Below are positions 16,283 to 36,881 of a stretch of DNA of 64,000 nt, one piece after another. The notes beneath the pieces were generated by a model that was not told where the DNA came from, did no database searches, and was given only the letters and a program-made list of their open reading frames with translations. A program made the translations under genes and the position numbers. The DNA is from Parcubacteria group bacterium (lineage in GTDB: Bacteria > Patescibacteriota > Minisyncoccia > Phycocordibacterales > UBA2135): contig JACPBB010000001.1 in NCBI GenBank assembly GCA_016180525.1, forward strand, positions 169,180-233,179, written 5' to 3'. Every line of letters begins with the position of its first letter. Within the stretch, counting starts at the first letter, position 1.

Positions 16283-17335
16283 TTACTCTTCCTCAAAAAT
16301 CGGTTTTTCGAGAGTAAGCGGCTCAATGCTTGACTCTTTGCCCGTGATACGAACCACGTCTTTATCAATTTTTTTAAACTCTTTGTACGCCGAGCTGTAG
16401 TGCGACACGGTGGTTTTCAATGAAACTCCAAGTTTTTTTAAAAATGAATCATAGCTGTCAATATGCCGTCCCAGCTCTCCTACCCGTTTAATGATTTCAG
16501 TTGCCTGCTCTTCTATCTGTAAAGCCTTGAGACCTTGCAGCACCGTCTGTAAATACGCGAGAAATGACGTGGGAGAGACAATAATAACTTTTTTGTCCCG
16601 AAACGCATATTCAACGAGATCCCTCGTGTTTATTTTTACCGCTCCGACTTGAGAGATGAGGAGGTCATAGTAAATCGCTTCATGTGGAATAAACATAAAC
16701 GCAAAGTCTAATGTCCCCTCTGTAGGTTTCACATACTGCGCTGTTTCGTCAATCCTGTTTTTTAAATCTTGTTTAAATGCTTTTTCAAGCCGCTCTCTCT
16801 CCATGGCATCTTTCGCTTCAACAAGACGAGTATAATTTTCAAGTGAAAATTTTGAATCTATCGGAATTATTTTATCTTTCACAAAGACAACGGCGTCCAC
16901 GATGCTGCCGTCTTTAAATGCGTACTGCATTTGAAAACTTCCAGGCGGCAGTACATTTTTAAGCACTGCTTCCAAATAGTATTCACCCAAAATTCCTCGC
17001 TGTTTTGGATTTTTTAAAATATCCTGCAATTCCTGCAATTTTTCCATTGAGCCCACCATCTGCCGTCCCGTTTCTTTCATTAAAGTAAGTTCTTCGGTCA
17101 CTTCTTTAACCAATTTTTGTGATTCAGAAAATTGTCGGCCCATTGATTCACTGATGTGCTTGTGTGACTGCCCGAGACGCTCGTCCAGAGTTTTTGTAAG
17201 CATGTTGAGCTGCTGTTGAAGCAGTAAAAATCCCTGTGCATCTCCTCCTGCCTCTCTCTTGCGCACGAAAAAGAAGGCAACCGCTGCGCCCGCTATAATA
17301 CCGAGGATAATAAAAATAATTGAAATGTTGTCCAT
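16283..17335 (-). CDS. rmuC: DNA recombination protein RmuC
   Basis: 350 aa with N-terminal TM helix, long coiled-coil and C-terminal RmuC nuclease-like domain (…NPKQRGILGEYYLEAVL…IPHEAIYYD…). Confidence 0.8.
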   Translation of the reverse strand: MDNISIIFIILGIIAGAAVAFFFVRKREAGGDAQGFLLLQQQLNMLTKTLDERLGQSHKHISESMGRQFSESQKLVKEVTEELTLMKETGRQMVGSMEKLQELQDILKNPKQRGILGEYYLEAVLKNVLPPGSFQMQYAFKDGSIVDAVVFVKDKIIPIDSKFSLENYTRLVEAKDAMERERLEKAFKQDLKNRIDETAQYVKPTEGTLDFAFMFIPHEAIYYDLLISQVGAVKINTRDLVEYAFRDKKVIIVSPTSFLAYLQTVLQGLKALQIEEQATEIIKRVGELGRHIDSYDSFLKKLGVSLKTTVSHYSSAYKEFKKIDKDVVRITGKESSIEPLTLEKPIFEEE

Positions 17336-20513: not shown

Positions 20514-20833
20514 ATTACTCTATATACTATATGATACAAATAGTTACAATTACGGAGGAAATGATGCTCGGTTTTACGAAACCAGTACGTAGCCCTCAAG
20601 TAAAGGAGACGACCATAAAAATTTCTCAATTATGCGATGCTGCAATTGAAGCGCAGTTAGTATTTCTCAAAGAGGAACATGCGCAACAGAGAAAGGTGGT
20701 GACTGCTGCTGCGGGTATTTCTGGGCGTGTTTACGAAAACGAGCTAGAGCTTGAAGCGGCTATTGAAGCAGATATATCTTTTTTCCAAACAGAATTGACA
20801 AAGAGAAACAGGCAAAAAAAATCAGCAGCATAA
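20507..20833 (+). CDS. hypothetical protein (start uncertain; possibly ATG 20561)
   Basis: ORF only; it overlaps the pcm start by 7 nt and the mpg stop by 12 nt. Confidence 0.3.
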   Translation: MTYYSIYYMIQIVTITEEMMLGFTKPVRSPQVKETTIKISQLCDAAIEAQLVFLKEEHAQQRKVVTAAAGISGRVYENELELEAAIEADISFFQTELTKRNRQKKSAA

Positions 20834-21403
20834 CACAAACCTCATTTTCTTTTTAGACCACACTGGTCCAGCATAGCCGACACCCACTCTGGGTGTCTTT
20901 TTTATGTCGCGCTTCTTTATTTTTACCCCCCTATCCTCAAACCAAAGCCCTGCTTTAGGAGACGCGCGAAGCGCGTTTAGTTTTTTATCTATCTTTAAAA
21001 ACTTCGTCAACTTCCCCGGCCCGTCGCAAAGCGAGGCTCGCCAATCTTTAATTGGCGCTCCATCCAAACTCTGGACATCCGATGTCCAGAGTTTGGCAGC
21101 ACGGATTAAGACAGCGGCAGGATATTCTTTGGGGCCTGTTACCACATTGAGCATATAGTACATGCCATAGCAGAGATAGATATATAAATGCCCCGCGGGG
21201 CCAAACATTATTTCTGTGCGAGCAGTTTTACCTTTGTGAGCGTGACTTGCTTTATCATGTGACCCGTCATACGCCTCTGTTTCAGTAATCATAAGGACAA
21301 TTTCTTTTCTTCCCATTTTCCGCACCAAAAACTTTCCAAGTAAATCCCTCGCGACAATACTTGCGTTTCTATTAAAAAATTCTTGCTTTAAAATTTTTCG
21401 CAT
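20822..21403 (-). CDS. mpg: DNA-3-methyladenine glycosylase (Mpg/AAG family)
   Basis: 193 aa; …ETEAYDGSHDKASHAHKGKTARTEIMFGPAGHLYIYLCYGMYYMLNV… and …AVLIRA…DGPGKL… match the MPG fold. Confidence 0.85.
   Translation of the reverse strand: MRKILKQEFFNRNASIVARDLLGKFLVRKMGRKEIVLMITETEAYDGSHDKASHAHKGKTARTEIMFGPAGHLYIYLCYGMYYMLNVVTGPKEYPAAVLIRAAKLWTSDVQSLDGAPIKDWRASLCDGPGKLTKFLKIDKKLNALRASPKAGLWFEDRGVKIKKRDIKKTPRVGVGYAGPVWSKKKMRFVLCC
21064..21096. repeat. 33-nt perfect palindrome (16-bp arms) inside the mpg coding sequence, with an adjacent 7-bp-arm palindrome at 21041-21059
   Basis: ccaaactctggacatc c gatgtccagagtttgg and cgccaat cttta attggcg. Both strands therefore encode LWTSDVQSL. Confidence 0.8.
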
Positions 21404-22201: not shown

Positions 22202-24244
22202 ATGGCCGACGAAAAACAGAAGCGTCTGTGCGATGAAGTTCGTATTGCGCTTCTTTCACGCATAGATTATTGCGGAGACGGATATCGCAAACGCCTCATG
22301 GAATGTGGATTTAATCTCGCAAAGCTGGAACAAGTCGCTTTCCTTGTGTTGGTGGGTGGGCTTGTCCACAATGAAGGTCTTAAGGAACGAATTCAGGAAG
22401 AGCTTGCGGAAGAGAAGGTGAAGCCAAAGAAAAAGCGACGCAGTCGCGCAGATGTCATTGACCGTGTTTTAAGTGAGGTCGCGGAAGAACTTGCAAAACA
22501 AATTCCAAGTATCACTCTACCCGGTACCGAAAAGAAAATTCGTCTGTATATCATGACCTCCCCAGCCTATGATGGAAAATATGGGGCAGCAATTGCCGAA
22601 AGACTCGCTGTTCTCCGCCCAGACGATATTCGCCACTGGGCAAAGGCAAGCGAGCATTTGCCACTTGAGCCGGCACCGCATGAAAAATTCAAAGAAATTG
22701 CCTGTCTCGTACCGAGGACAACTTCATTCCGTTCAAAATATGACTCCACTGCAGTAGACCGAGTTGTTGAAGACTATCTGAATACTGCGAAAAAGGCGTA
22801 CGCACCTGTCGTTATTGTCGGTTGCTTTAATGTAAATTTTCACAAGCCGGCAGGCGGTGAAAGCTCGATTCATATCATTGGACTTCCCGGATCAAGCCGT
22901 ATTGAAGAGAACCGCGCTTCAGAAAACCAAGTTGGTTTGACAATACTTAGAATCACTAATGACGGAAACCTGTTCGTAAAATCTCACAACTTCAATGACC
23001 TAGTGGTCAGAGAGCGTGAGTCAATCAATATTTCGCCGAAGTATAACAAGACAACACAGCGCGTGCTTGAACAGTTCAAGCACCGGACATGGTGGACGCT
23101 GGGTCTTCTTTCGGAAAAACTTGGCGTACCCCGCGACGAACTCAAGAAAACGCTTAACAGTATTGTAAAGCGACCGAGGCTCAATCCTCCGCTTAAATAT
23201 GACGAATCTTCGCAGCGATATTTTATTCCTCGTCCGTGGATCCAGAAAAATGTTACATATCCCTATCCGTGGCCGACGAAAGAATTTATTGAAGAGCGGT
23301 TTTTGTCTTTTGGCTGCTTGCACGCTCTGTGCCGACATACCGCGCACGAGTTCATGCTTGATGAAATGCCAAAACTTATGCTCAAATATAACATTCATCA
23401 CCTCATTGGTGGTGGAGACTTCATTGAAGGCCGTTCACACGGTCTTCCGGAAAATGGAGAATTGCTTTTTGGCGCCACGTATGACGCGCAAGAGAAGTTT
23501 GCCGCATGGCTTGTGGCAGAAGTCCTTCTCCGAGTCTTTAAAGAGCGTATTCAAAAATTGACGCAAACTGCGGACAAGAAACTGTTTACCGATGAAGCTG
23601 CCGTTCTTAACTTCATCAAAGCGACCCTTCCTGATTTTTGGTACATTCCTGGAAATCATGACGAATGGACTGAAAGAGTCGCGTTTGAAGCTCTGACGGT
23701 GTTCCGTTATGAACTGTTTCAACTCGTTCGTAGGGGTGTAACAGAGACGCTGAAAAACACAGGTCTTGTTGTACCGGCAATCCTTGAACAATTCATTGAA
23801 AGCACTATGGTGAAAATGAGCCCTCTGGACGCCGCTATGCATTCGTCAGGCGTTTCTCTGTCGCTGAACCATCTTCACATGGGCAGAACGCAGACAAAAA
23901 CGATTCGGAGTCAAGCGCTCTTGGGCGCAACGACTGCCGTTATCAACATTCACGCGAATTTTCACACCGCTCTTTCTATGTCTCGCTTTGACCCGAACAT
24001 TGGCCAGCGCGTCGTTCAGCAGATTGGAACACTCAAGCTTCGCTCAGGATTTGAAGACCGAAAAGGAAAAAAAGTTGACTTTGGAGTCGGATATCTCCGA
24101 GTCGGACTAGAGCAGCGTGGTAATGAAAAAGTTATCCTGATGCACGAGGTCGCGCTTTTCGGAGATCCGGCAAAATATCAGAGTATCGAAAATAGAGGTT
24201 TTATTGAATCTTTCAAAAAGAAAATTTTCGGAAAAAAAATCTAA
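22202..24244 (+). CDS. large hypothetical protein with C-terminal calcineurin-like metallophosphoesterase motifs (GD-x2-[DE]…GNHDE…H-x-N-F-H)
   Basis: 680 aa; …HHLIGGGDFIEG… about 65 aa …IPGNHDEW… then …INIHANFH…. The N-terminal ~400 aa have no recognisable family. Preceded by a TTGAGA-N18-TACAAT promoter-like sequence; followed by a strong terminator. Confidence 0.55.
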   Translation: MADEKQKRLCDEVRIALLSRIDYCGDGYRKRLMECGFNLAKLEQVAFLVLVGGLVHNEGLKERIQEELAEEKVKPKKKRRSRADVIDRVLSEVAEELAKQIPSITLPGTEKKIRLYIMTSPAYDGKYGAAIAERLAVLRPDDIRHWAKASEHLPLEPAPHEKFKEIACLVPRTTSFRSKYDSTAVDRVVEDYLNTAKKAYAPVVIVGCFNVNFHKPAGGESSIHIIGLPGSSRIEENRASENQVGLTILRITNDGNLFVKSHNFNDLVVRERESINISPKYNKTTQRVLEQFKHRTWWTLGLLSEKLGVPRDELKKTLNSIVKRPRLNPPLKYDESSQRYFIPRPWIQKNVTYPYPWPTKEFIEERFLSFGCLHALCRHTAHEFMLDEMPKLMLKYNIHHLIGGGDFIEGRSHGLPENGELLFGATYDAQEKFAAWLVAEVLLRVFKERIQKLTQTADKKLFTDEAAVLNFIKATLPDFWYIPGNHDEWTERVAFEALTVFRYELFQLVRRGVTETLKNTGLVVPAILEQFIESTMVKMSPLDAAMHSSGVSLSLNHLHMGRTQTKTIRSQALLGATTAVINIHANFHTALSMSRFDPNIGQRVVQQIGTLKLRSGFEDRKGKKVDFGVGYLRVGLEQRGNEKVILMHEVALFGDPAKYQSIENRGFIESFKKKIFGKKI

Positions 24245-24256
24245 ATAACGTATATT

Positions 24257-24288
24257 AAAGGAGTTCACCTGAACTCCTTTTTTTAATT
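24257..24288 (+). terminator. Intrinsic terminator (AAAGGAGTTCA-CC-TGAACTCCTTT + T-run)
   Basis: Perfect 11-bp stem. Confidence 0.8.
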
Positions 24289-24401
24289 CACAAATGTATT
24301 TTATATGGTGGATGTTTTAAAAAATCATTTTATCTTATCGTCAAGGTTTTTTATTTTTTTGGGATGTTATTATGAACACAGATTAAAAAAAGGGGTGTTT
24401 C

Positions 24402-25190
24402 ATGGCGACAAAATTCGCACTGCATAAAATAAAAGTAATAATGCCAGATGATACGGTGTTTACCTTCTGGTTTGACGGCAACGGAAAAATTACTGCAGGA
24501 AACGGAACATTTGATTCCCCCGTTCCAAATGCCTTCTCGCTCGTACAAGTCAAAGACTGTCCGTCGGCAACACCGACATGCACCAGCGTTTGCTATGTGC
24601 ACAACCTTGAAAAAGCGGAGGCTGAGGTGCACGGCAAATATGCCCACAACAGCGTCACCATTCGTAAGATTCTTCAGAATGCCATTTATCGGCAAGCAAC
24701 TGAATTTGAATTTGTTCATTGGATAAAGAAAAACAATATCCGAGAATTCAGATGGCACGTCTCCGGTGATGTCTTTTCAAAAGAATACGCAAAATTTGTT
24801 GTATCGGTGTGTAATTTAGCTCCGGATGTTTTATTTTGGATTTATACGCGCTCATTTAATTTTGTTGAAACACTGCAAGAAGCACCCAATTTGGTTGTAA
24901 ATCTCTCGGCAGACAGAGACAATTATAAAAAAGCACTTGAAATAAACAGAAAATACGGAGTCCGTATCTGCTATCTTTCTCTTGAAGGAGAGATTCCTAA
25001 GGATTTGCCAAAAGGGTCCGTCATTTTCCCAAACTACACGCTTCGCGGAAGAGATTTGCCCGTTCCTACAGAAGCTCCATTTTGGAAACAGCTTACGCTG
25101 AAACAAAAAAAGATGGTGTGCCCGCCGGATTTCTTCGGCCAAAGCGAAAAACTCCGCTGCGGCCCGTGCCGGAAGTGCATGGTTCATTAA
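24402..25190 (+). CDS. phage Gp37/Gp68 (DUF5131)-like Cys-cluster protein
   Basis: 262 aa; N-terminal C-x6-C-x3-C-Y (…DCPSATPTCTSVCYVHN…), then …WHVSGDVF… and …VLFWIYTRSFN…, resembling the DUF5131 layout W.NP..GC…S.GC..CYA … GDLF … W.ILTKRP. C-terminal CPPD…C-x2-C-x2-C. Assignment from memory of the family pattern. Confidence 0.45.
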   Translation: MATKFALHKIKVIMPDDTVFTFWFDGNGKITAGNGTFDSPVPNAFSLVQVKDCPSATPTCTSVCYVHNLEKAEAEVHGKYAHNSVTIRKILQNAIYRQATEFEFVHWIKKNNIREFRWHVSGDVFSKEYAKFVVSVCNLAPDVLFWIYTRSFNFVETLQEAPNLVVNLSADRDNYKKALEINRKYGVRICYLSLEGEIPKDLPKGSVIFPNYTLRGRDLPVPTEAPFWKQLTLKQKKMVCPPDFFGQSEKLRCGPCRKCMVH

Positions 25191-25214
25191 CCCCGCAATA
25201 GCGGGGTTTTTTCT
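25191..25214 (+). terminator. Intrinsic terminator (CCCCGC-AATA-GCGGGG + TTTTTT)
   Basis: Perfect 6-bp GC stem right after the stop. Confidence 0.8.
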
Positions 25215-25273
25215 TGCATTTATTTCTTATTTACCTATACTCCTAAACAGAACTTGAAATTCGGAAGCATCAG

Positions 25274-26152
25274 GTGTCTGAGACAATATCGCAAGAAAAA
25301 TTTCTTACATTAATGCGTTTGTGCTGCACAAAAGAGACAAGCGCGAGTCCCGATACGTGGACTCCTAAAAATCCCCTGTGGGGGCATTGTGCCGCTGTTT
25401 CCCTTGTCGCTCAAAACATGTTTGGAGGTACACTTCTGCGTGTCTCTCTTACAGATACCCCGTTTAAAGCTATGCGGTCACACTACTTCAATAAATTACC
25501 CGATGGAACCGTCATCGATTTTACCAAAGAACAGTTTGGGAAATTATATCCAAGTGGTTTAAAAACAAAGACACGAACCTGCGGAAGCATTCTTGAACAT
25601 GAAAGCACCAGAAACCGCTATAAAAAACTTGCTCTCCGTTTTGCCTATGAAATGACTCAAAATGTGCTCCTTTTGCACCCTTTATATGGGGCATGTTTTG
25701 AAGCCGCACTTGATTCCGGATGCCAAAAACTATGGGTTGGCTCCGTACTCGTGCATAATGGAGTTGTTGTCTCTTCGGGTAATAACCATCCTGTAGAAGA
25801 GCTCGCGCATGTCTGCAAACCAAAGTGTATTCGCTTCAATATTCAATCAAGAACTGAATCAATGATTGGTGCGTGTGGGCACGCGGAAGAATACGCCATG
25901 TGGGAGGCTATCCAAAAAGGAATCCCGCTTTCTGAGTGCGATATGTATGTCGCTATGGTCGGCACAGACGGATTGCCGCGGTTTAGAAGCGACCCTTCTG
26001 TTGGATATACTTGCCTACGATGCGCAACAGCAATGCGTTTGGCTGGTATCAAAAATGTATATATTGATATTGTTGACCATTGGGAAAAAATCAGTATTAA
26101 GGATGCACTACAAAGCGCATTGCAATATGCTCTTGGTGAAAAGAAACTATAA
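25274..26152 (+). CDS. two-domain protein: unknown N-terminal domain + C-terminal dCMP/cytidine-deaminase-like zinc-binding domain
   Basis: The C-terminal half reads …SGCQKLWVGSVLVHNGVVVSSGNN…ACGHAEEYAMWEAI…YTCLRCATAMRLAGIKNVYI…. These are the CDA-fold H-A-E and C-x2-C zinc motifs plus the dCMP-deaminase AGIK.V tail. The N-terminal ~140 aa (…NPLWGHCAAVSLVAQNMFGG…) are unassigned. Confidence 0.6.
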   Translation: MSETISQEKFLTLMRLCCTKETSASPDTWTPKNPLWGHCAAVSLVAQNMFGGTLLRVSLTDTPFKAMRSHYFNKLPDGTVIDFTKEQFGKLYPSGLKTKTRTCGSILEHESTRNRYKKLALRFAYEMTQNVLLLHPLYGACFEAALDSGCQKLWVGSVLVHNGVVVSSGNNHPVEELAHVCKPKCIRFNIQSRTESMIGACGHAEEYAMWEAIQKGIPLSECDMYVAMVGTDGLPRFRSDPSVGYTCLRCATAMRLAGIKNVYIDIVDHWEKISIKDALQSALQYALGEKKL

Positions 26153-26249
26153 GTAATATGTGTTAAAATTCCAGCGTTTGCTGGATTTTTTTGCAAAAAC
26201 ATTTTTTCCCTATATACTATTCACAGATTATTCAAACGAGGCACCAGAG

Positions 26250-27245
26250 ATGATACAGGACGATGTGTGTATTGACCACGAACGTATACAGGCTATTGCC
26301 CGAACTATTGCTTCCATTCCTGAGCATGGTGGAACATTAAATTTCCACAGCATTGAAACACCGCAAGGTGCACGAGTGCTTTCCGATATGTATCCAGACG
26401 TTGATGACGCTCATGCGATTGATTTCTTTTTCTTTGCCATTCTTCATGATCATGGATTCTGGTTTGGAGATGATGCGGGATATGTCAGCCCTCTGTATGG
26501 AACCATTCTTGGGAAAAACAAGGTAAAGGGTTCTGATTTATTGTGGAAGTCATTAAAACGATCGTTTGATAAAAACCCAACCATCGTAACCATAGAGCGC
26601 CTTTTAAAAATAACTCCGGAGGAATTTGCCGATGTGTTTTCAGATGATAACGGACCAATTCCGTTTCCCGACTGGGAGGCTCGGTATATGCTTACAAAAC
26701 AATACGCGCAGTGGTTTCTAGCCGCGCGCATAAAACCCAAAGACATGCTTTTAAAAGTACGCGCCACGCCCAAACCACTCTTGGAATTTAGAAATCTTAT
26801 GCGAGTTGTACCGGGCTATACAGATCCTTTCAATAAAAAAACACTACTCCTTGCTATGGTGCTTTCATTGCGCCCAGAAAAATTTTTATCCGTCACGGAT
26901 ACAGAGTCATGGGACCCAATTATTGATTACCACCTTATGCGTCTTGCGTTACGGATGGGAATAGTGGCTATTCCGAATTCTAACCCACTCTACAAAAGGC
27001 TGACAAAACGAAATTGGGTAAATGCGGATGAAGAATTATTTATACGACAAGAAGTATATCAGGCAATGAAGAAAGTATTGCAGTACTCACGTAAGCCGCT
27101 TGCGTTTGTAGATTATGCATTCTGGTCTGGAAGAAAATTTTGCCCAGAAATGACGGAACCGAATTGCAGAGAGTGTCCATTTCAGAGTGTGTGCGCAAAA
27201 AAAACTGAGTTATTTCAACCGATATTTAGAACGCTCAATTATTAA
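26250..27245 (+). CDS. HhH-GPD superfamily N-glycosylase-like protein with endonuclease-III-type [4Fe-4S] cluster loop and ~190-aa N-terminal extension (possible Qng1/DUF2419-like or divergent DNA glycosylase)
   Basis: Start taken at ATG 26250 (MIQDDVCIDHERIQ…); promoter-like ttgcaa…tatact lies inside the ORF-track 5' extension. HhH-like …VPGYTDPFNKKTLLLAMVL…. …IDYHLMRLALRMGIV… resembles the EndoIII VDTHIFRVCNR segment with the catalytic Asp. C-terminal C-x7-C-x2-C-x5-C (FCPEMTEPNCRECPFQSVC). Confidence 0.5.
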   Translation: MIQDDVCIDHERIQAIARTIASIPEHGGTLNFHSIETPQGARVLSDMYPDVDDAHAIDFFFFAILHDHGFWFGDDAGYVSPLYGTILGKNKVKGSDLLWKSLKRSFDKNPTIVTIERLLKITPEEFADVFSDDNGPIPFPDWEARYMLTKQYAQWFLAARIKPKDMLLKVRATPKPLLEFRNLMRVVPGYTDPFNKKTLLLAMVLSLRPEKFLSVTDTESWDPIIDYHLMRLALRMGIVAIPNSNPLYKRLTKRNWVNADEELFIRQEVYQAMKKVLQYSRKPLAFVDYAFWSGRKFCPEMTEPNCRECPFQSVCAKKTELFQPIFRTLNY

Positions 27246-27258
27246 AGCGAGATAAAAT

Positions 27259-27287
27259 AAAGCCCAACTGTTTTGGTTGGGTTTTTC
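27259..27287. terminator. Bidirectional terminator (AGCCCAAC-TGTTTTG-GTTGGG + TTTTT) between convergent genes
   Basis: Between the 27245 stop (+) and the 27300 stop (-). Confidence 0.65.
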
Positions 27288-27299
27288 TAAAAATTAAGA

Positions 27300-27671
27300 T
27301 TACTTTTCTGCCATATGCTTCATCACTAAAAAGAAGCTTTTGTCGGGTCCATTTTTTATTTCCACTTCATTCGCAACAACAACTCGCTTTCTAATGCCGA
27401 GCATTTCCGTAAGCATAAATACTCCTCCCATATCAAATTTTGAACCATAACTTTTCTCGTCATACCAAATATGCACCTCATCGGCATCTAAAATTGCCTG
27501 AAAATTTGTCCTACAGATATTCACTCCGCCCGTCGGGTCATCTTGTTCCGTATCCAGAGTCGGCCAGTGAACACGGTGTCCTTGTTTTTCAAGCTGCTTT
27601 ACGTACTTTGCAATTTTAGCGTTCGTTTTTTTACTTGCGTTCGTGACCGGACAAACAAGAAATATTTTCAT
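27300..27671 (-). CDS. nucleoside 2-deoxyribosyltransferase-like / DNPH1(Rcl)-like protein
   Basis: 123 aa; MKIFLVCPVT… Rossmann-like N-terminus typical of the family, and a …D…SYGSKFDMGGVFML… segment at the expected position. Family-level only. Confidence 0.45.
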   Translation of the reverse strand: MKIFLVCPVTNASKKTNAKIAKYVKQLEKQGHRVHWPTLDTEQDDPTGGVNICRTNFQAILDADEVHIWYDEKSYGSKFDMGGVFMLTEMLGIRKRVVVANEVEIKNGPDKSFFLVMKHMAEK

Positions 27672-28345
27672 GCGCTCATTCCTACCGAAAAGTACTTTTT
27701 CAATCGCTCCACCGTTTCAGACCAGAGTTTTCTATCAATTTTAGGGTCCATGTCGCGCCAATTAGCACGCTCGGGCCTACCAAGCGCTTCGGCAAGACGA
27801 GTACGGAAATATTGTGCCGGAACACCTTTCGGATCCCATATAATGTCAGTTTTTTGGTCAACACCGGGAGGCCTGGAGAGAAGATATCCATCTCCAATCT
27901 TTCCAACTCCTTCGGGAATTCCATTCGTTACAAAATTAAATTGCTCATATAAAGTTTCGGGAAAGTCCTGCAGCATTTTTGTAGTGAGGTCTACATGAGC
28001 GGGAACTATGTGTAAGTGCGCATGCTTCACTGTCTGTCCGACTATTCCATGTTCAAACAATATTACAGACCGTTCGCCAACAGTAGAACCATTATATGCT
28101 CCATATTCATCGTGAACCAAATCCTCTACGTACAACAACAAATGAGTTAATTTTACTTGCTCTTTTTCTGTAAGTAAATTCATACAGATTACATGACGTT
28201 TCGGGAATACAAGCACATGTCCACCGTCAGTAATCTGCCCCAGTGTCGCGATAACAAAAAATTCATTGGTTTCTGTAATAATACGCTCTTTAAATGTTTC
28301 GCGATTGCAGAACGGACAATCTTTTTCCATACATTTCTTCTCCAA
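27668..28345 (-). CDS. HIT-family nucleotide hydrolase/transferase
   Basis: Histidine triad HAHLHIVP; N-terminal CPFC; overlaps the downstream gene by 4 nt (operon). Confidence 0.75.
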   Translation of the reverse strand: MEKKCMEKDCPFCNRETFKERIITETNEFFVIATLGQITDGGHVLVFPKRHVICMNLLTEKEQVKLTHLLLYVEDLVHDEYGAYNGSTVGERSVILFEHGIVGQTVKHAHLHIVPAHVDLTTKMLQDFPETLYEQFNFVTNGIPEGVGKIGDGYLLSRPPGVDQKTDIIWDPKGVPAQYFRTRLAEALGRPERANWRDMDPKIDRKLWSETVERLKKYFSVGMSA

Positions 28346-35806: not shown

Positions 35807-36412
35807 TTATATATTTTTTAAAACTAAAAAATCTTTTTTTAATGTATCAAGAAGCGTTCTATTGTACACGGCGGCCGCGGGATGATAGAGGGCCACGATT
35901 TTAATTGCTCCATGTGATGCGTTTGCTTCAAATACTTTTCCGTGTAATTTACTGATGGGCGCCAATTCTTCCCATAAATTAAATGTTTCAAGAATAAAAT
36001 TCATGGAGTATCTTCCAAGCGTTGCTAAAACAGAGGGTTGAATAATTTCAATTTGGCGAGTCAGAAACGGGGCATAAGCCCTTATTTCTTCAGGAAGCGG
36101 GTCACGGTTACGAGGCGGCCTGTCTTTTACAATATTTGTAATATATACTTCTTCTCGCTTAAGTCCCGCGGAAATAAGGAGCTCGTCTAAAATTTTTCCC
36201 GCTGTACCGCAAAACGGCCTTCCGGTTGCCGCCTCATTTCTTCCGGGCGCCTCCCCGATAAACATAATACGTGCGTCGTGACTCCCCTCGCCAATCACCG
36301 GATACACTTTGTTTTTTGTTCTTTCTTCAAACAGGGGTAAGTCATTTCCATCCAACACCTCATCTCGTATTTCTTTAAGGAGGTCGTGTTTTGTTTTATT
36401 AGATTTCTCCAT
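35807..36412 (-). CDS. uracil-DNA glycosylase, family 4-type
   Basis: Motif A GEGSHDARIMFIGEAPGRNEAATGRPFCGTAGKIL and the UDG-superfamily fold pattern. Start taken at MEKSNKTKHD; it overlaps the upstream mgtC-like gene by 14 nt. Confidence 0.8.
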   Translation of the reverse strand: MEKSNKTKHDLLKEIRDEVLDGNDLPLFEERTKNKVYPVIGEGSHDARIMFIGEAPGRNEAATGRPFCGTAGKILDELLISAGLKREEVYITNIVKDRPPRNRDPLPEEIRAYAPFLTRQIEIIQPSVLATLGRYSMNFILETFNLWEELAPISKLHGKVFEANASHGAIKIVALYHPAAAVYNRTLLDTLKKDFLVLKNI

Positions 36413-36881
36413 TACTCCATTTTCCCGATACTTTTTTAATTCGCGTTTCAAAAAACCAGAGTATCGTGAAAATAAACAAAGTAACAATTGTCGCGAAGGT
36501 AGCAATCGCATAAAGGCCAAACCCAGAGGCCATACCGATGCCCGCGGCAACCCATAATCCTGCGGCAGTCGTTATCCCCTCAACATGGCTGCCCCGAAAA
36601 ATAATAACCCCAGCGCCTAAAAATCCGATACCGGTTACAATCTGCGCCGCAACACGAAGTGGGTCAAAATTTGTAACGCCGACAAACTGGCTTGAAATAA
36701 TAACTGATACTGCAACAAAAAGTGCCGAGCCCATTGATACAAGAGCATAGGTACGCAGACCCGCTGTTTTATGAGCACGCTCGCGCTCAAGACCAAGAAT
36801 CCCGCCAAGAACAGCCGCCACAAGTAAGTGCGCAAATATAGACAATGTCTCCGCGTCAATAAAAAAACCAAATAAGTCCAT
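36399..36881 (-). CDS. MgtC/SapB family membrane protein
   Basis: 160 aa, …LGGILGLERERAHKTAGLRTYALVSMGSALF…; family signature. Confidence 0.85.
   Translation of the reverse strand: MDLFGFFIDAETLSIFAHLLVAAVLGGILGLERERAHKTAGLRTYALVSMGSALFVAVSVIISSQFVGVTNFDPLRVAAQIVTGIGFLGAGVIIFRGSHVEGITTAAGLWVAAGIGMASGFGLYAIATFATIVTLFIFTILWFFETRIKKVSGKWSNGEI

What the first reader, a model, noticed from the sequence alone, without database searches (positions are those of the whole stretch)
26250..27245. EndoIII-like HhH-GPD protein with Fe-S cluster loop and a 190-aa N-terminal extension
The C-terminal C-x7-C-x2-C-x5-C and the …IDYHLMRLALRMGIV… segment mirror the endonuclease III/MutY Fe-S cluster loop and catalytic region. 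An HhH-like …VPGYTDPFNKK… is present. The protein is about 120 aa longer than EndoIII and sits beside a deaminase-domain protein. Deaminase plus glycosylase is the logic of base editing followed by excision. Alternatively it is a Qng1/DUF2419-like nucleotide N-glycosylase for queuine salvage.
Basis: partly seen in the sequence, partly recalled or inferred. Interest (0 to 1): 0.6.

Follow-up and report, generated by a model that had tools for sequence, protein, structure and literature searches.

The report
Iron-sulfur-loop variant of Qng1 nucleotide glycosylase
This gene of a tiny-genome groundwater bacterium encodes a distant relative of Qng1, the enzyme that clips the base off the nucleotide queuosine monophosphate, but it carries an iron-sulfur-cluster loop like that of DNA-repair glycosylases, so it most likely recycles free nucleotides and does not repair DNA.

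Summary
The sequence features are real. The ORF 26250..27245 (+, 331 aa) carries a helix-hairpin-helix, a catalytic-type Asp (D226) and a C-terminal C-x7-C-x2-C-x5-C. The four Cys are present in 106 of 107 full-length homologues. They align with the [4Fe-4S] ligands of E. coli endonuclease III and MutY.

The Cys loop is a roughly 20-aa insert that is absent from all 120 canonical Qng1 sequences examined.

The family is large (867 representatives). It stands alone in Patescibacteria and Woesearchaeota. In Chloroflexota, Acidimicrobiia and others it is fused to a PfkB ribokinase-type kinase.

Best reading: an Fe-S-bearing N-glycosylase of free nucleoside 5'-monophosphates, with a guanine-like base and an unknown exact substrate. 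The deaminase-plus-glycosylase DNA-editing idea is not supported.

This is a new variant of a known kind, of moderate interest.

The parts
26250..27245 (+). CDS of the Fe-S-loop Qng1-like protein (331 aa plus stop). The ATG at 26250 is taken as the start, not the GTG at 26160.
   Evidence: ORF list. Identical to the NCBI protein of 331 aa. Homologues start at the equivalent position. The 26160-26249 stretch holds a terminator-like hairpin, a promoter-like site and a GAGG 8 nt before the ATG.
26170..26218 (+). Terminator-like hairpin of the upstream deaminase gene (26170-26185 plus T-run), followed by the promoter-like TTGCAA-16-TATACT (26191-26218).
   Evidence: These are consensus matches only. 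Promoter-like sites are not above the shuffles; terminator-like sites number 13 against 6.7+/-2.5.
26457..26531 (+). F70-W71 (ribose-stacking Phe, equivalent to StQng1 F75-W76) and the beta-hairpin insertion 71-94, ending in the family signature K93-G94-S95-D96.
   Evidence: DSSP strands 71-74, 77-81, 83-86 and 89-93. hhalign mapping to StQng1 W76-G92. Conservation. Translation.
26775..26870 (+). Helix-hairpin-helix: helix 176-184, hairpin VPGYTDPFNKK, helix 196-207. K196 is equivalent to Qng1 K199 and L200 to I203. The hairpin lacks Qng1's beta4-beta5 insertion.
26925..26933 (+). D226-Y227-H228. D226 is the catalytic Asp (Qng1 D231, EndoIII D138). Y227 stacks on the ribose (Qng1 Y232). H228 replaces the phosphate-binding K233.
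   Evidence: Roles are taken from PMC9881137.
27111..27134 (+). D288...W292..R295. D288 is the base-edge-reading Asp (Qng1 D298), W292 the stacking aromatic (Qng1 W302), and R295 sits in place of the phosphate-binding Q306.
27141..27194 (+). Four-Cys loop C298-x7-C306-x2-C309-x5-C315, the predicted [4Fe-4S] cluster loop.
   Evidence: Absent from 120 canonical Qng1 sequences.
27195..27245 (+). C-terminal tail ...ELFQPIFRTLNY, ending in the conserved terminal Tyr (Y331, equivalent to Qng1 Y323, whose carboxylate is part of the active site), then the stop codon.
   Evidence: Role of the terminal Tyr from PMC9881137.
27263..27281 (-). Terminator-like hairpin between the convergent gene pair (the Qng1-like gene and the 27300..27671 minus-strand gene).
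25274..26152 (+). Upstream neighbour: a YunG (PF24585) plus dCMP/cytidine deaminase (PF00383) fusion. It is listed as context and probably does not work together with the glycosylase.
   Evidence: A homologue lies directly upstream of the Qng1-like gene in one Yanofskybacteria contig, L011.

Best explanation
The gene encodes a divergent, iron-sulfur-cluster-bearing member of the Qng1/DUF2419 branch of the HhH glycosylase superfamily.

Proposed mechanism:
- It most likely hydrolyses the N-glycosidic bond of a free nucleoside 5'-monophosphate (possibly also the nucleoside), releasing a base and ribose 5-phosphate for salvage.
- D226 acts as nucleophile or oxocarbenium stabiliser.
- K196 and the carboxylate of the terminal Tyr331 hold the ribose hydroxyls.
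- F70 and Y227 stack on the ribose. L200 and W292 sandwich the base.
- D288 reads a guanine-type edge.
- H228, R295 and K93 may form the phosphate site.
- The four Cys bind a [4Fe-4S] cluster homologous to the EndoIII/MutY cluster loop. Here the cluster is probably structural and anchors the C-terminal tail that closes the active site.

The substrate is probably not queuosine 5'-monophosphate itself, because the queuine pocket and proton relay are replaced.

Shown here: homology, fold, conservation and fusion architecture. Inferred: metal binding, catalysis and substrate class.
For: - Sequence: the family profile hits only Qng1 in the PDB (E 2e-6). hhalign to canonical Qng1 gives 98.2%, E 3e-14, 274 columns.
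- Conserved Qng1 catalytic and ribose/base-edge residues and a terminal Tyr in 92-94% of relatives. Their roles come from PMC9881137.
- Four of the five Qng1 insertions that block the DNA cleft are kept.
- About half of the genome loci encode a PfkB-kinase fusion with an intact GAGD motif (visible in the sequences), which points to a free nucleoside or nucleotide substrate.
- Cys loop: 106 of 107 homologues have it. It aligns in register with the EndoIII/MutY ligands and is absent from canonical Qng1.
Against: - No biochemical data exist for any member.
- Pfam PF10343 scores below its gathering threshold for this protein (18 against 25 bits).
- The Qng1 beta4-beta5 insertion in the HhH is missing, and an EndoIII-type cluster loop, which contacts DNA in EndoIII/MutY, is present. 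A nucleic-acid substrate is therefore not excluded.
- Model coordinates could not be inspected, so the cluster geometry is untested.
- The similarity of the Cys loop to EndoIII is not significant on its own (E 0.7-1; hhalign probability 9-11%).
- The fused kinase could instead phosphorylate the ribose product.
- Gene neighbourhood gives no consistent support.
Confidence: 0.6

Rival explanations
1. It is a functional orthologue of Qng1: a queuosine-5'-monophosphate glycosylase that supplies queuine (or a precursor) to tRNA-guanine transglycosylase. The Fe-S loop would be an ancestral ornament, and the fused PfkB domain in other phyla would be the queuosine kinase.
For: - Only Qng1 is found by profile and fold searches.
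- D288 and W292 (Qng1 D298 and W302) and the terminal Tyr are kept.
- Some homologues pass PF10343 and are named 'queuosine salvage family protein' by NCBI.
- Qng1's preferred substrate is a 5'-monophosphate made by a still unidentified kinase (PMC9881137), which fits a kinase fusion.
- One distant relative is fused to a radical-SAM domain (P0364). From background knowledge, this recalls the queuine lyase QueL.
Against: - The queuine-specific residues, which are invariant in canonical Qng1, are replaced by other conserved residues: Y93/W94 become S95/D96, D69 becomes an aliphatic residue, D207 becomes A/V/I, and R80 is lost.
- The family occurs in Woesearchaeota next to TBP and MCM genes, and archaea do not use queuosine (background knowledge).
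- No tgt or queA lies in the 64-kb window (weak evidence, since the rest of the genome is unseen) or in the seven contexts inspected.
Confidence: 0.2
2. It is a DNA (or RNA) glycosylase of the EndoIII/MutY type. It removes a damaged or deaminated base from a polymer, possibly downstream of the neighbouring deaminase.
For: - HhH, a Gly/Pro-Asp-type catalytic Asp and a four-Cys loop lie in register with EndoIII/MutY.
- After Qng1, the next Foldseek hits are MutY and EndoIII.
- The HhH hairpin is short, as in DNA glycosylases.
- A deaminase gene is adjacent here and in L011.
Against: - There is no PF00730 hit.
- The cleft-blocking hairpins, alpha12 and the C-terminal tail with its terminal Tyr are retained. 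In Qng1 that carboxylate contacts the 3'-OH and excludes 3'-phosphorylated substrates and tRNA.
- PfkB-kinase fusions make no sense for a polymer substrate.
- The deaminase is of the dCMP/cytidine-deaminase type and is separated from the glycosylase gene by a terminator-like hairpin.
- The window already encodes MPG-type and UDG-type DNA glycosylases.
Confidence: 0.1
3. The four Cys bind zinc, or form a purely structural knuckle or disulfides, and not a [4Fe-4S] cluster. Alternatively the protein is a non-catalytic nucleotide-binding or sensor protein.
For: - Metal identity cannot be read from sequence.
- The first Cys spacing is x7, not the x6 of EndoIII/MutY, and it varies from x5 to x11 in distant subfamilies.
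Against: - The spacing and topological position match the EndoIII/MutY cluster loop, including the G-R-x-x-C lead-in and, in this protein and MutY, C-P-[FL]-Q.
- All catalytic residues are 93-100% conserved, which argues for an active enzyme.
Confidence: 0.1

Closest known systems
Qng1 / QNG1 (DUF2419, PF10343): queuosine-5'-monophosphate N-glycosylase (S. thermophilus 7U07/7UK3, human 7UGK; PMC9881137)
   Same: - Catalytic Asp-Tyr, the HhH Lys and the Phe-Trp ribose wall are kept.
- The base-edge Asp, the stacking aromatic, the R-T-x-x-Y C-terminus ending exactly at the Tyr, the beta2-beta3 hairpin, the beta1/beta6 sheet and alpha12 are also kept.
   Different: - It carries a roughly 20-residue four-Cys loop between the last helix and the tail. 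Canonical Qng1 has no Cys there and is reported to be metal independent.
- It lacks the beta4-beta5 insertion in the HhH.
- Queuine pocket: Y93/W94 become S95/D96, and W299 is variable (W48 and H53 map only in a low-confidence part of the alignment). Proton relay: D69 and D207 become aliphatic. Phosphate contacts: R80 is lost, K233 becomes His, and Q306 becomes Arg.
- This protein scores below the Pfam threshold.
- The family occurs in archaea and as PfkB fusions.
Endonuclease III (Nth) and MutY: HhH-GPD DNA glycosylases with a [4Fe-4S] cluster loop
   Same: - HhH, catalytic Asp and the C-terminal Cys-x6/7-Cys-x2-Cys-x5-Cys lie in the same order.
- hhalign and HMMER place D226 on D138 and all four Cys on the cluster ligands.
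   Different: - It is 120 aa longer, with insertions that fill the DNA cleft and a tail that plugs the active site.
- No PF00730 match.
- The family is fused to kinases.
- The similarity is statistically weak on sequence alone.
Clusterless MutY (8UUC), cited as a precedent for gain or loss of the cluster within one HhH family
   Different: It is a DNA-repair enzyme. It is cited only as an evolutionary analogy, which is my inference.

Membership tests
Qng1/DUF2419 (PF10343) | Pfam PF10343 match above the gathering score | tested here: not met
   This protein scores 18.0 bits against a cut-off of 25. Many homologues do carry PF10343.
Qng1/DUF2419 (PF10343) | Profile and fold homology over the whole chain | tested here: met
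   [not shown]
Qng1/DUF2419 (PF10343) | Catalytic Asp-Tyr (D231-Y232) and HhH Lys (K199) | tested here: met
   D226-Y227 and K196 are 93-100% conserved.
Qng1/DUF2419 (PF10343) | Invariant C-terminal Tyr whose carboxylate completes the active site | tested here: met
   Y331 is the last codon before the stop. The terminal Tyr is present in 92-94% of relatives. Its position in the active site was not checked in coordinates.
Qng1/DUF2419 (PF10343) | 7-deazaguanine recognition: D298 plus the W302/I203 sandwich | tested here: met
   D288 (94-100%), W292 (Trp in stand-alone forms, Phe in fusions) and L200.
Qng1/DUF2419 (PF10343) | Cyclopentenediol pocket (W48, H53, Y93, W94, W299) | tested here: not met
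   Y93/W94 align with the conserved S95/D96. W299 aligns with a variable position. The W48/H53 region aligns poorly.
Qng1/DUF2419 (PF10343) | Proton-relay network D69-N72-D207 | tested here: not met
   D69 maps to position 64 (C/V/T/I), D207 to position 204 (A/V/I), and N72 to position 67 (Q/D/N).
Qng1/DUF2419 (PF10343) | Metal-independent, with no Fe-S cluster | tested here: not met
   The four-Cys loop is present here. None of 120 canonical sequences has it. Metal independence of Qng1 is stated in PMC9881137.
Qng1/DUF2419 (PF10343) | Hydrolysis of queuosine 5'-monophosphate to queuine | not testable with these tools
   This needs an enzyme assay.
Endonuclease III / HhH-GPD (PF00730) | PF00730 profile match | tested here: not met
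   No hit at E <= 1. Only one distant 795-aa relative gives a sub-threshold hit.
Endonuclease III / HhH-GPD (PF00730) | HhH followed by a Pro/Gly-rich loop and the catalytic Asp | tested here: met
   Helices 176-184 and 196-207 with the hairpin between them, then P223...D226. D226 aligns with EndoIII and MutY D138.
Endonuclease III / HhH-GPD (PF00730) | Cys-x6-Cys-x2-Cys-x5-Cys [4Fe-4S] cluster loop at the C-terminus | tested here: met
   The x7 variant is present, aligned Cys for Cys with EndoIII and MutY. Cluster binding itself is untested.
Endonuclease III / HhH-GPD (PF00730) | Open inter-lobe cleft that binds duplex DNA and flips a base | tested here: inconclusive
   Four of the five Qng1 cleft-blocking insertions and the tail are present by alignment and DSSP.
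Endonuclease III / HhH-GPD (PF00730) | Orthologue of Nth conserved at this position in relatives | tested here: not met
   The best PDB and profile matches are Qng1, not Nth. The gene context varies among relatives.

The most novel reading that the evidence does not exclude
The Fe-S-loop proteins may be the ancestral, widespread form of the Qng1 family, a link between EndoIII-type DNA glycosylases and free-nucleotide glycosylases. Canonical metal-free Qng1 would then be a derived, clusterless branch specialised for queuine.

On this reading the recurrent PfkB fusion marks the kinase that makes the 5'-monophosphate substrate. That gives a concrete candidate family for the still unidentified queuosine or modified-nucleoside kinase.

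In Patescibacteria and DPANN archaea the stand-alone enzyme would then salvage a 7-deazaguanine or other modified guanine base (preQ0, preQ1, an archaeosine precursor, or m7G) from host-derived nucleotides.
Probability: 0.2. Interest if true: 0.75.

Novelty: new variant of a known kind. Interest (0 to 1): 0.55.

Why it matters
Qng1 was described as a metal-independent enzyme dedicated to queuine salvage. This analysis points to a large, unannotated sister group: 867 representatives at 50% identity, mostly labelled 'hypothetical' or 'carbohydrate kinase'.

That group keeps the catalytic core but carries an EndoIII-type Fe-S loop and a remodelled base pocket. If that holds, three things follow:
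- HhH glycosylases that act on free nucleotides would be broader than one micronutrient pathway.
- It would show how a DNA-repair fold was converted to nucleotide metabolism.
- It would point to nucleotide-scavenging chemistry in ultra-small symbiotic bacteria and archaea that cannot make nucleotides.

The kinase fusions also give a testable lead for the kinase step that the Qng1 literature leaves open.

Tried and rejected
- EndoIII orthologue: rejected. PF00730 gives no hit, and tblastn with E. coli Nth, MutY, Tgt and QueA finds nothing significant in the window.
- Anti-phage defence or phage origin: PADLOC and PHROGs give no hit for the protein.
- Operon with the deaminase: weak. A terminator-like hairpin and a promoter-like site lie between the genes. 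The adjacency recurs only in L011. Other nearby deaminases in L001 and L008 are not orthologous.
- Conserved neighbourhood: I clustered about 1,100 ORFs from 77 non-redundant loci and found no neighbour family in more than 9 loci.
- Functional link to the 680-aa neighbour: it is adjacent in 3 loci, but elsewhere its family sits next to ClpX/ClpP-like genes. I treat the adjacency as lineage synteny.
- A separate PfkB kinase near the stand-alone genes: none found.
- The AFDB Foldseek library was not available.
- Model coordinates are not exposed, so Cys-Cys distances and pocket shape could not be measured.
- Zallot et al. 2014 (PMC4136680) is not held, so I could not check whether it mentions these subfamilies.
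- Literature searches for an Fe-S Qng1, a queuosine kinase, or Qng1 with PfkB found nothing.
Full report
**Observation.** The region holds one ORF on the + strand, 26160..27245. I take the ATG at 26250 as the start, for three reasons. It gives a 331-aa product identical to the NCBI-called protein MBI2108754.1 of a Parcubacteria-group MAG on a 344-kb contig. Homologues begin at the equivalent position. The 90 bases upstream contain a terminator-like hairpin (26170-26185 plus a T-run), a promoter-like TTGCAA-16-TATACT (26191-26218) and a GAGG 8 nt before the ATG.

CPEMTEPNCRECPFQSVC lies at 27141..27194, DYH at 26925..26933 and VPGYTDPFNKK within 26775..26870. The Cys pattern is the only match to C-x6-7-C-x2-C-x5-C in the six-frame translation of the 64-kb window.

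**Family and fold.** Pfam gives no PF00730 (HhH-GPD) hit. It gives only a sub-threshold PF10343 (Q_salvage) hit of 18 bits against a cut-off of 25. NCBIfam gives nothing. A search of 5.8 billion proteins found 113 homologues of about 330 aa, nearly all from Patescibacteria. Many of them carry PF10343, and a few are named 'queuosine salvage family protein'.

A profile of 33 homologues (A1) hits only Qng1/DUF2419 chains in the PDB (7UGK at E 2e-6; 7UK3 and 7U07). Profile-profile comparison with 21 canonical Qng1 sequences (A2, which includes a 99%-identical copy of S. thermophilus Qng1) gives 98.2% probability, E 3e-14 and 274 aligned columns, covering residues 2-304.

**Residue mapping.** Residue roles come from the Qng1 structure paper (PMC9881137). 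The mapping comes from hhalign, and conservation from 176 aligned relatives.

Residues that are kept:

| StQng1 | This protein | Role or note |
|---|---|---|
| F75-W76 | F70-W71 | ribose wall |
| K199 | K196 (97-100%) | HhH lysine |
| I203 | L200 | base stacking |
| D231-Y232 | D226-Y227 | catalytic Asp-Tyr |
| E267 / R271 | E262 / R266 | conserved in both families |
| D298 | D288 | reads the base edge |
| W302 | W292 (Phe in fusions) | base stacking |
| R319-T320-x-x-Y323 | R327-T328-x-x-Y331 | C-terminal tail |

Y331 is the last residue, and a terminal Tyr is found in 92-94% of relatives.

Residues that are not kept:

| StQng1 | This protein | Element |
|---|---|---|
| Y93 / W94 | S95 / D96 (conserved) | queuine pocket |
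| W299 | variable position | queuine pocket |
| D69 | position 64 (C/V/T/I) | proton relay |
| D207 | position 204 (A/V/I) | proton relay |
| R80 | lost | phosphate contact |
| K233 | invariant H228 | phosphate contact |
| Q306 | R295 | phosphate contact |

Of the five Qng1-specific insertions said to block the DNA cleft, four are present. These are the beta2-beta3 hairpin, the beta1/beta6 sheet, alpha12 and the C-terminal tail. The beta4-beta5 insertion in the HhH is absent.

**The Cys loop.** Canonical Qng1 ends ...DWxLWxLGQxLPxxxxPYHRTRTIFY, with no Cys in that stretch. None of 120 canonical sequences has the motif. The present family ends ...DxxxWxARxYCPEMxxPxCxxCxFxxVCxKRxELFQPVxRTTxY. 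The four Cys therefore sit in an insert of about 20 residues between the W-helix and the tail.

They are present in 106 of 107 full-length homologues; the exception is truncated. They are 97-100% conserved.

A profile of this segment alone retrieves EndoIII chains as four of its five best PDB hits, with all four Cys on the cluster ligands. The E-values are only 0.7-1. hhalign of A1 against E. coli Nth and MutY puts D226 on D138 and C298/C306/C309/C315 on the four ligands (E about 3e-3 for the single comparison, probability 9-11%).

The lead-in G-R-x-x-C is shared with EndoIII. In this protein, C-P-F-Q matches MutY's C-P-L-Q. Together with the equivalent topological position, I consider homology with the EndoIII/MutY [4Fe-4S] loop likely. 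Metal binding itself is inferred.

**Extent of the family.** An exhaustive profile search of 1.84 billion representatives found 867 proteins at E <= 1e-3, 456 at <= 1e-10 and 112 at <= 1e-30. Of the newly listed hits, 107 of 140 show a four-Cys loop, and most of the rest are fragments.

A recurrent architecture of about 600 aa has an N-terminal PfkB ribokinase-type kinase and this domain at the C-terminus. The kinase GAGD and NxxE motifs are visible in the sequences. The kinase matches ribokinase, nucleoside-kinase and ribose-1-phosphate-kinase models without reaching any equivalog cut-off.

A scan of one genome per GTDB species confirmed the gene in 145 matched stretches, of which the best 80 loci were fetched. 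The stand-alone form is found in Patescibacteria and in Woesearchaeota. The archaeal context was verified by neighbouring TBP, MCM and eIF genes. The fusion is found in Chloroflexota, Acidimicrobiia, Myxococcota and others. By my ORF calling, at least 41 of 77 non-redundant loci carry the fusion. Source databases call the fusions 'carbohydrate kinase family protein' or 'hypothetical'.

More distant subfamilies share the short HhH hairpin, the DYH/DNH motif, a Cys-rich C-terminus and a terminal YY. Canonical Qng1 looks like the clusterless outlier.

**Genomic context.** The four + strand genes are a 680-aa protein (22202..24244), a GP88/PF17338 protein (24402..25190), a YunG plus dCMP-deaminase fusion (25274..26152) and the Qng1-like gene. 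Each is followed by a terminator-like hairpin.

The deaminase matches dCMP_cyt_deam_1, ComEB and the phage dCMP-deaminase family. It is therefore a free-nucleotide deaminase type. A homologue lies 15 nt upstream of the Qng1-like gene in one Yanofskybacteria contig (L011). Other nearby deaminases are unrelated.

Across 77 loci no neighbour family recurs in more than 9. The window has no tgt, queA, nth or mutY. It does encode MPG-type and UDG-type DNA glycosylases.

**Mechanism proposed.** I propose a nucleotide (or nucleoside) N-glycosylase that works as Qng1 does. The Asp stabilises or attacks C1'. The Lys and the terminal carboxylate hold the 2'/3'-OH. Aromatic residues stack on the ribose and the base. 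An Asp reads a guanine-type edge.

The terminal-carboxylate feature, the retained cleft-filling insertions and the kinase fusions all point to a small-molecule substrate. The remodelled, more polar pocket (S95/D96, D/Q/N67) and the archaeal members argue that the base is not queuine itself.

The cluster loop directly precedes the tail that must open and close the active site, so a structural or gating role is the simplest inference. For Patescibacteria and DPANN archaea, which are generally reported to depend on scavenged nucleotides (background knowledge), such an enzyme would release a base and ribose 5-phosphate from 5'-NMPs. I put about 0.6 on this general mechanism. Substrate identity is open.

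**Rivals.**
- A true Q-5'MP glycosylase: about 0.2. Homology, the guanine-edge residues and the fit with a kinase step favour it. The lost queuine pocket and relay, and the archaeal members, count against it.
- A DNA or RNA glycosylase coupled to the deaminase: about 0.1. The HhH, Asp and cluster loop favour it. The fold, tail, fusions and context count against it.
- A zinc-binding or non-catalytic protein: about 0.1.

**Novelty.** Full-text searches found no description of a cluster-bearing Qng1, a queuosine kinase or a PfkB-Qng1 fusion. The 2014 DUF2419 paper could not be read. The family is recognisably Qng1-like, and some members are already auto-annotated as such. I therefore rate it a new variant of a known kind, not a new kind.

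**Limits.** There is no biochemistry. Only 64 kb of the genome was seen. ORF calling in the fetched loci was crude.

Noticed in passing
[not shown]
   Followed up: yes
window 25274..26152 (+): A fusion of a YunG domain (PF24585, function unknown) with a dCMP/cytidine deaminase domain. HAE and C-x2-C zinc-site motifs can be read in the translation. A 294-aa homologue sits 15 nt upstream of the Qng1-like gene in Yanofskybacteria contig L011.
   Followed up: partly
window 24402..25190 (+): A Cys-rich 262-aa protein that matches Pfam GP88 (PF17338, E 2e-33) and phrog_1392 (unknown function). It is a phage-associated family sitting in a cellular gene row.
   Followed up: no
window 27300..27671 (-) and 27668..28345 (-): A 123-aa protein with a weak nucleoside 2-deoxyribosyltransferase-like hit (E 0.012). 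It overlaps by 4 nt a HIT-family protein (DcpS_C/HIT; PADLOC ThsC-like HIT, E 1e-5). The pair is convergent with the Qng1-like gene, so several nucleotide-handling genes cluster here. There is no PDB sequence match for the 123-aa protein.
   Followed up: partly
window 20822..21403 (-), 35807..36550 (-), 16283..17335 (-): Bona fide DNA-repair genes nearby: a methylpurine-DNA glycosylase (PF02245), a UDG-superfamily protein (PF03167) and RmuC.
   Followed up: no
window 24257..24280, 25189..25208, 26170..26185, 27263..27281: Each gene of the + strand row 22202..27245 is followed by its own terminator-like hairpin with a T-run. There are 13 such sites in 5.9 kb against 6.7+/-2.5 in shuffles, which suggests separate transcription units and not one operon.
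   Followed up: partly
protein P0364 (not in window): A 544-aa protein joins a Qng1-like domain, with an exact EndoIII-type C-x6-C-x2-C-x5-C but Asn in place of the catalytic Asp, to a C-terminal radical-SAM domain. From background knowledge, this recalls the queuine lyase QueL.
   Followed up: no
loci L021, L024, L026, L027, L029, L085 and others: Several contigs that carry the gene come from MAGs titled 'Gammaproteobacteria', 'Rickettsiales', 'Melainabacteria' or even 'Klebsiella pneumoniae'. The gene versions there resemble those of Patescibacteria or Chloroflexota, so some bin labels are probably wrong.
   Followed up: no
proteins P0334-P0373 (not in window): More distant Qng1-like subfamilies have a short HhH hairpin, DYH or DNH, varied Cys spacings (C-x5 to x11-C-x2-4-C-x5-C) or no Cys, and a terminal YY. 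Canonical Qng1 appears as the clusterless outlier, with a 9-residue HhH insertion.
   Followed up: partly
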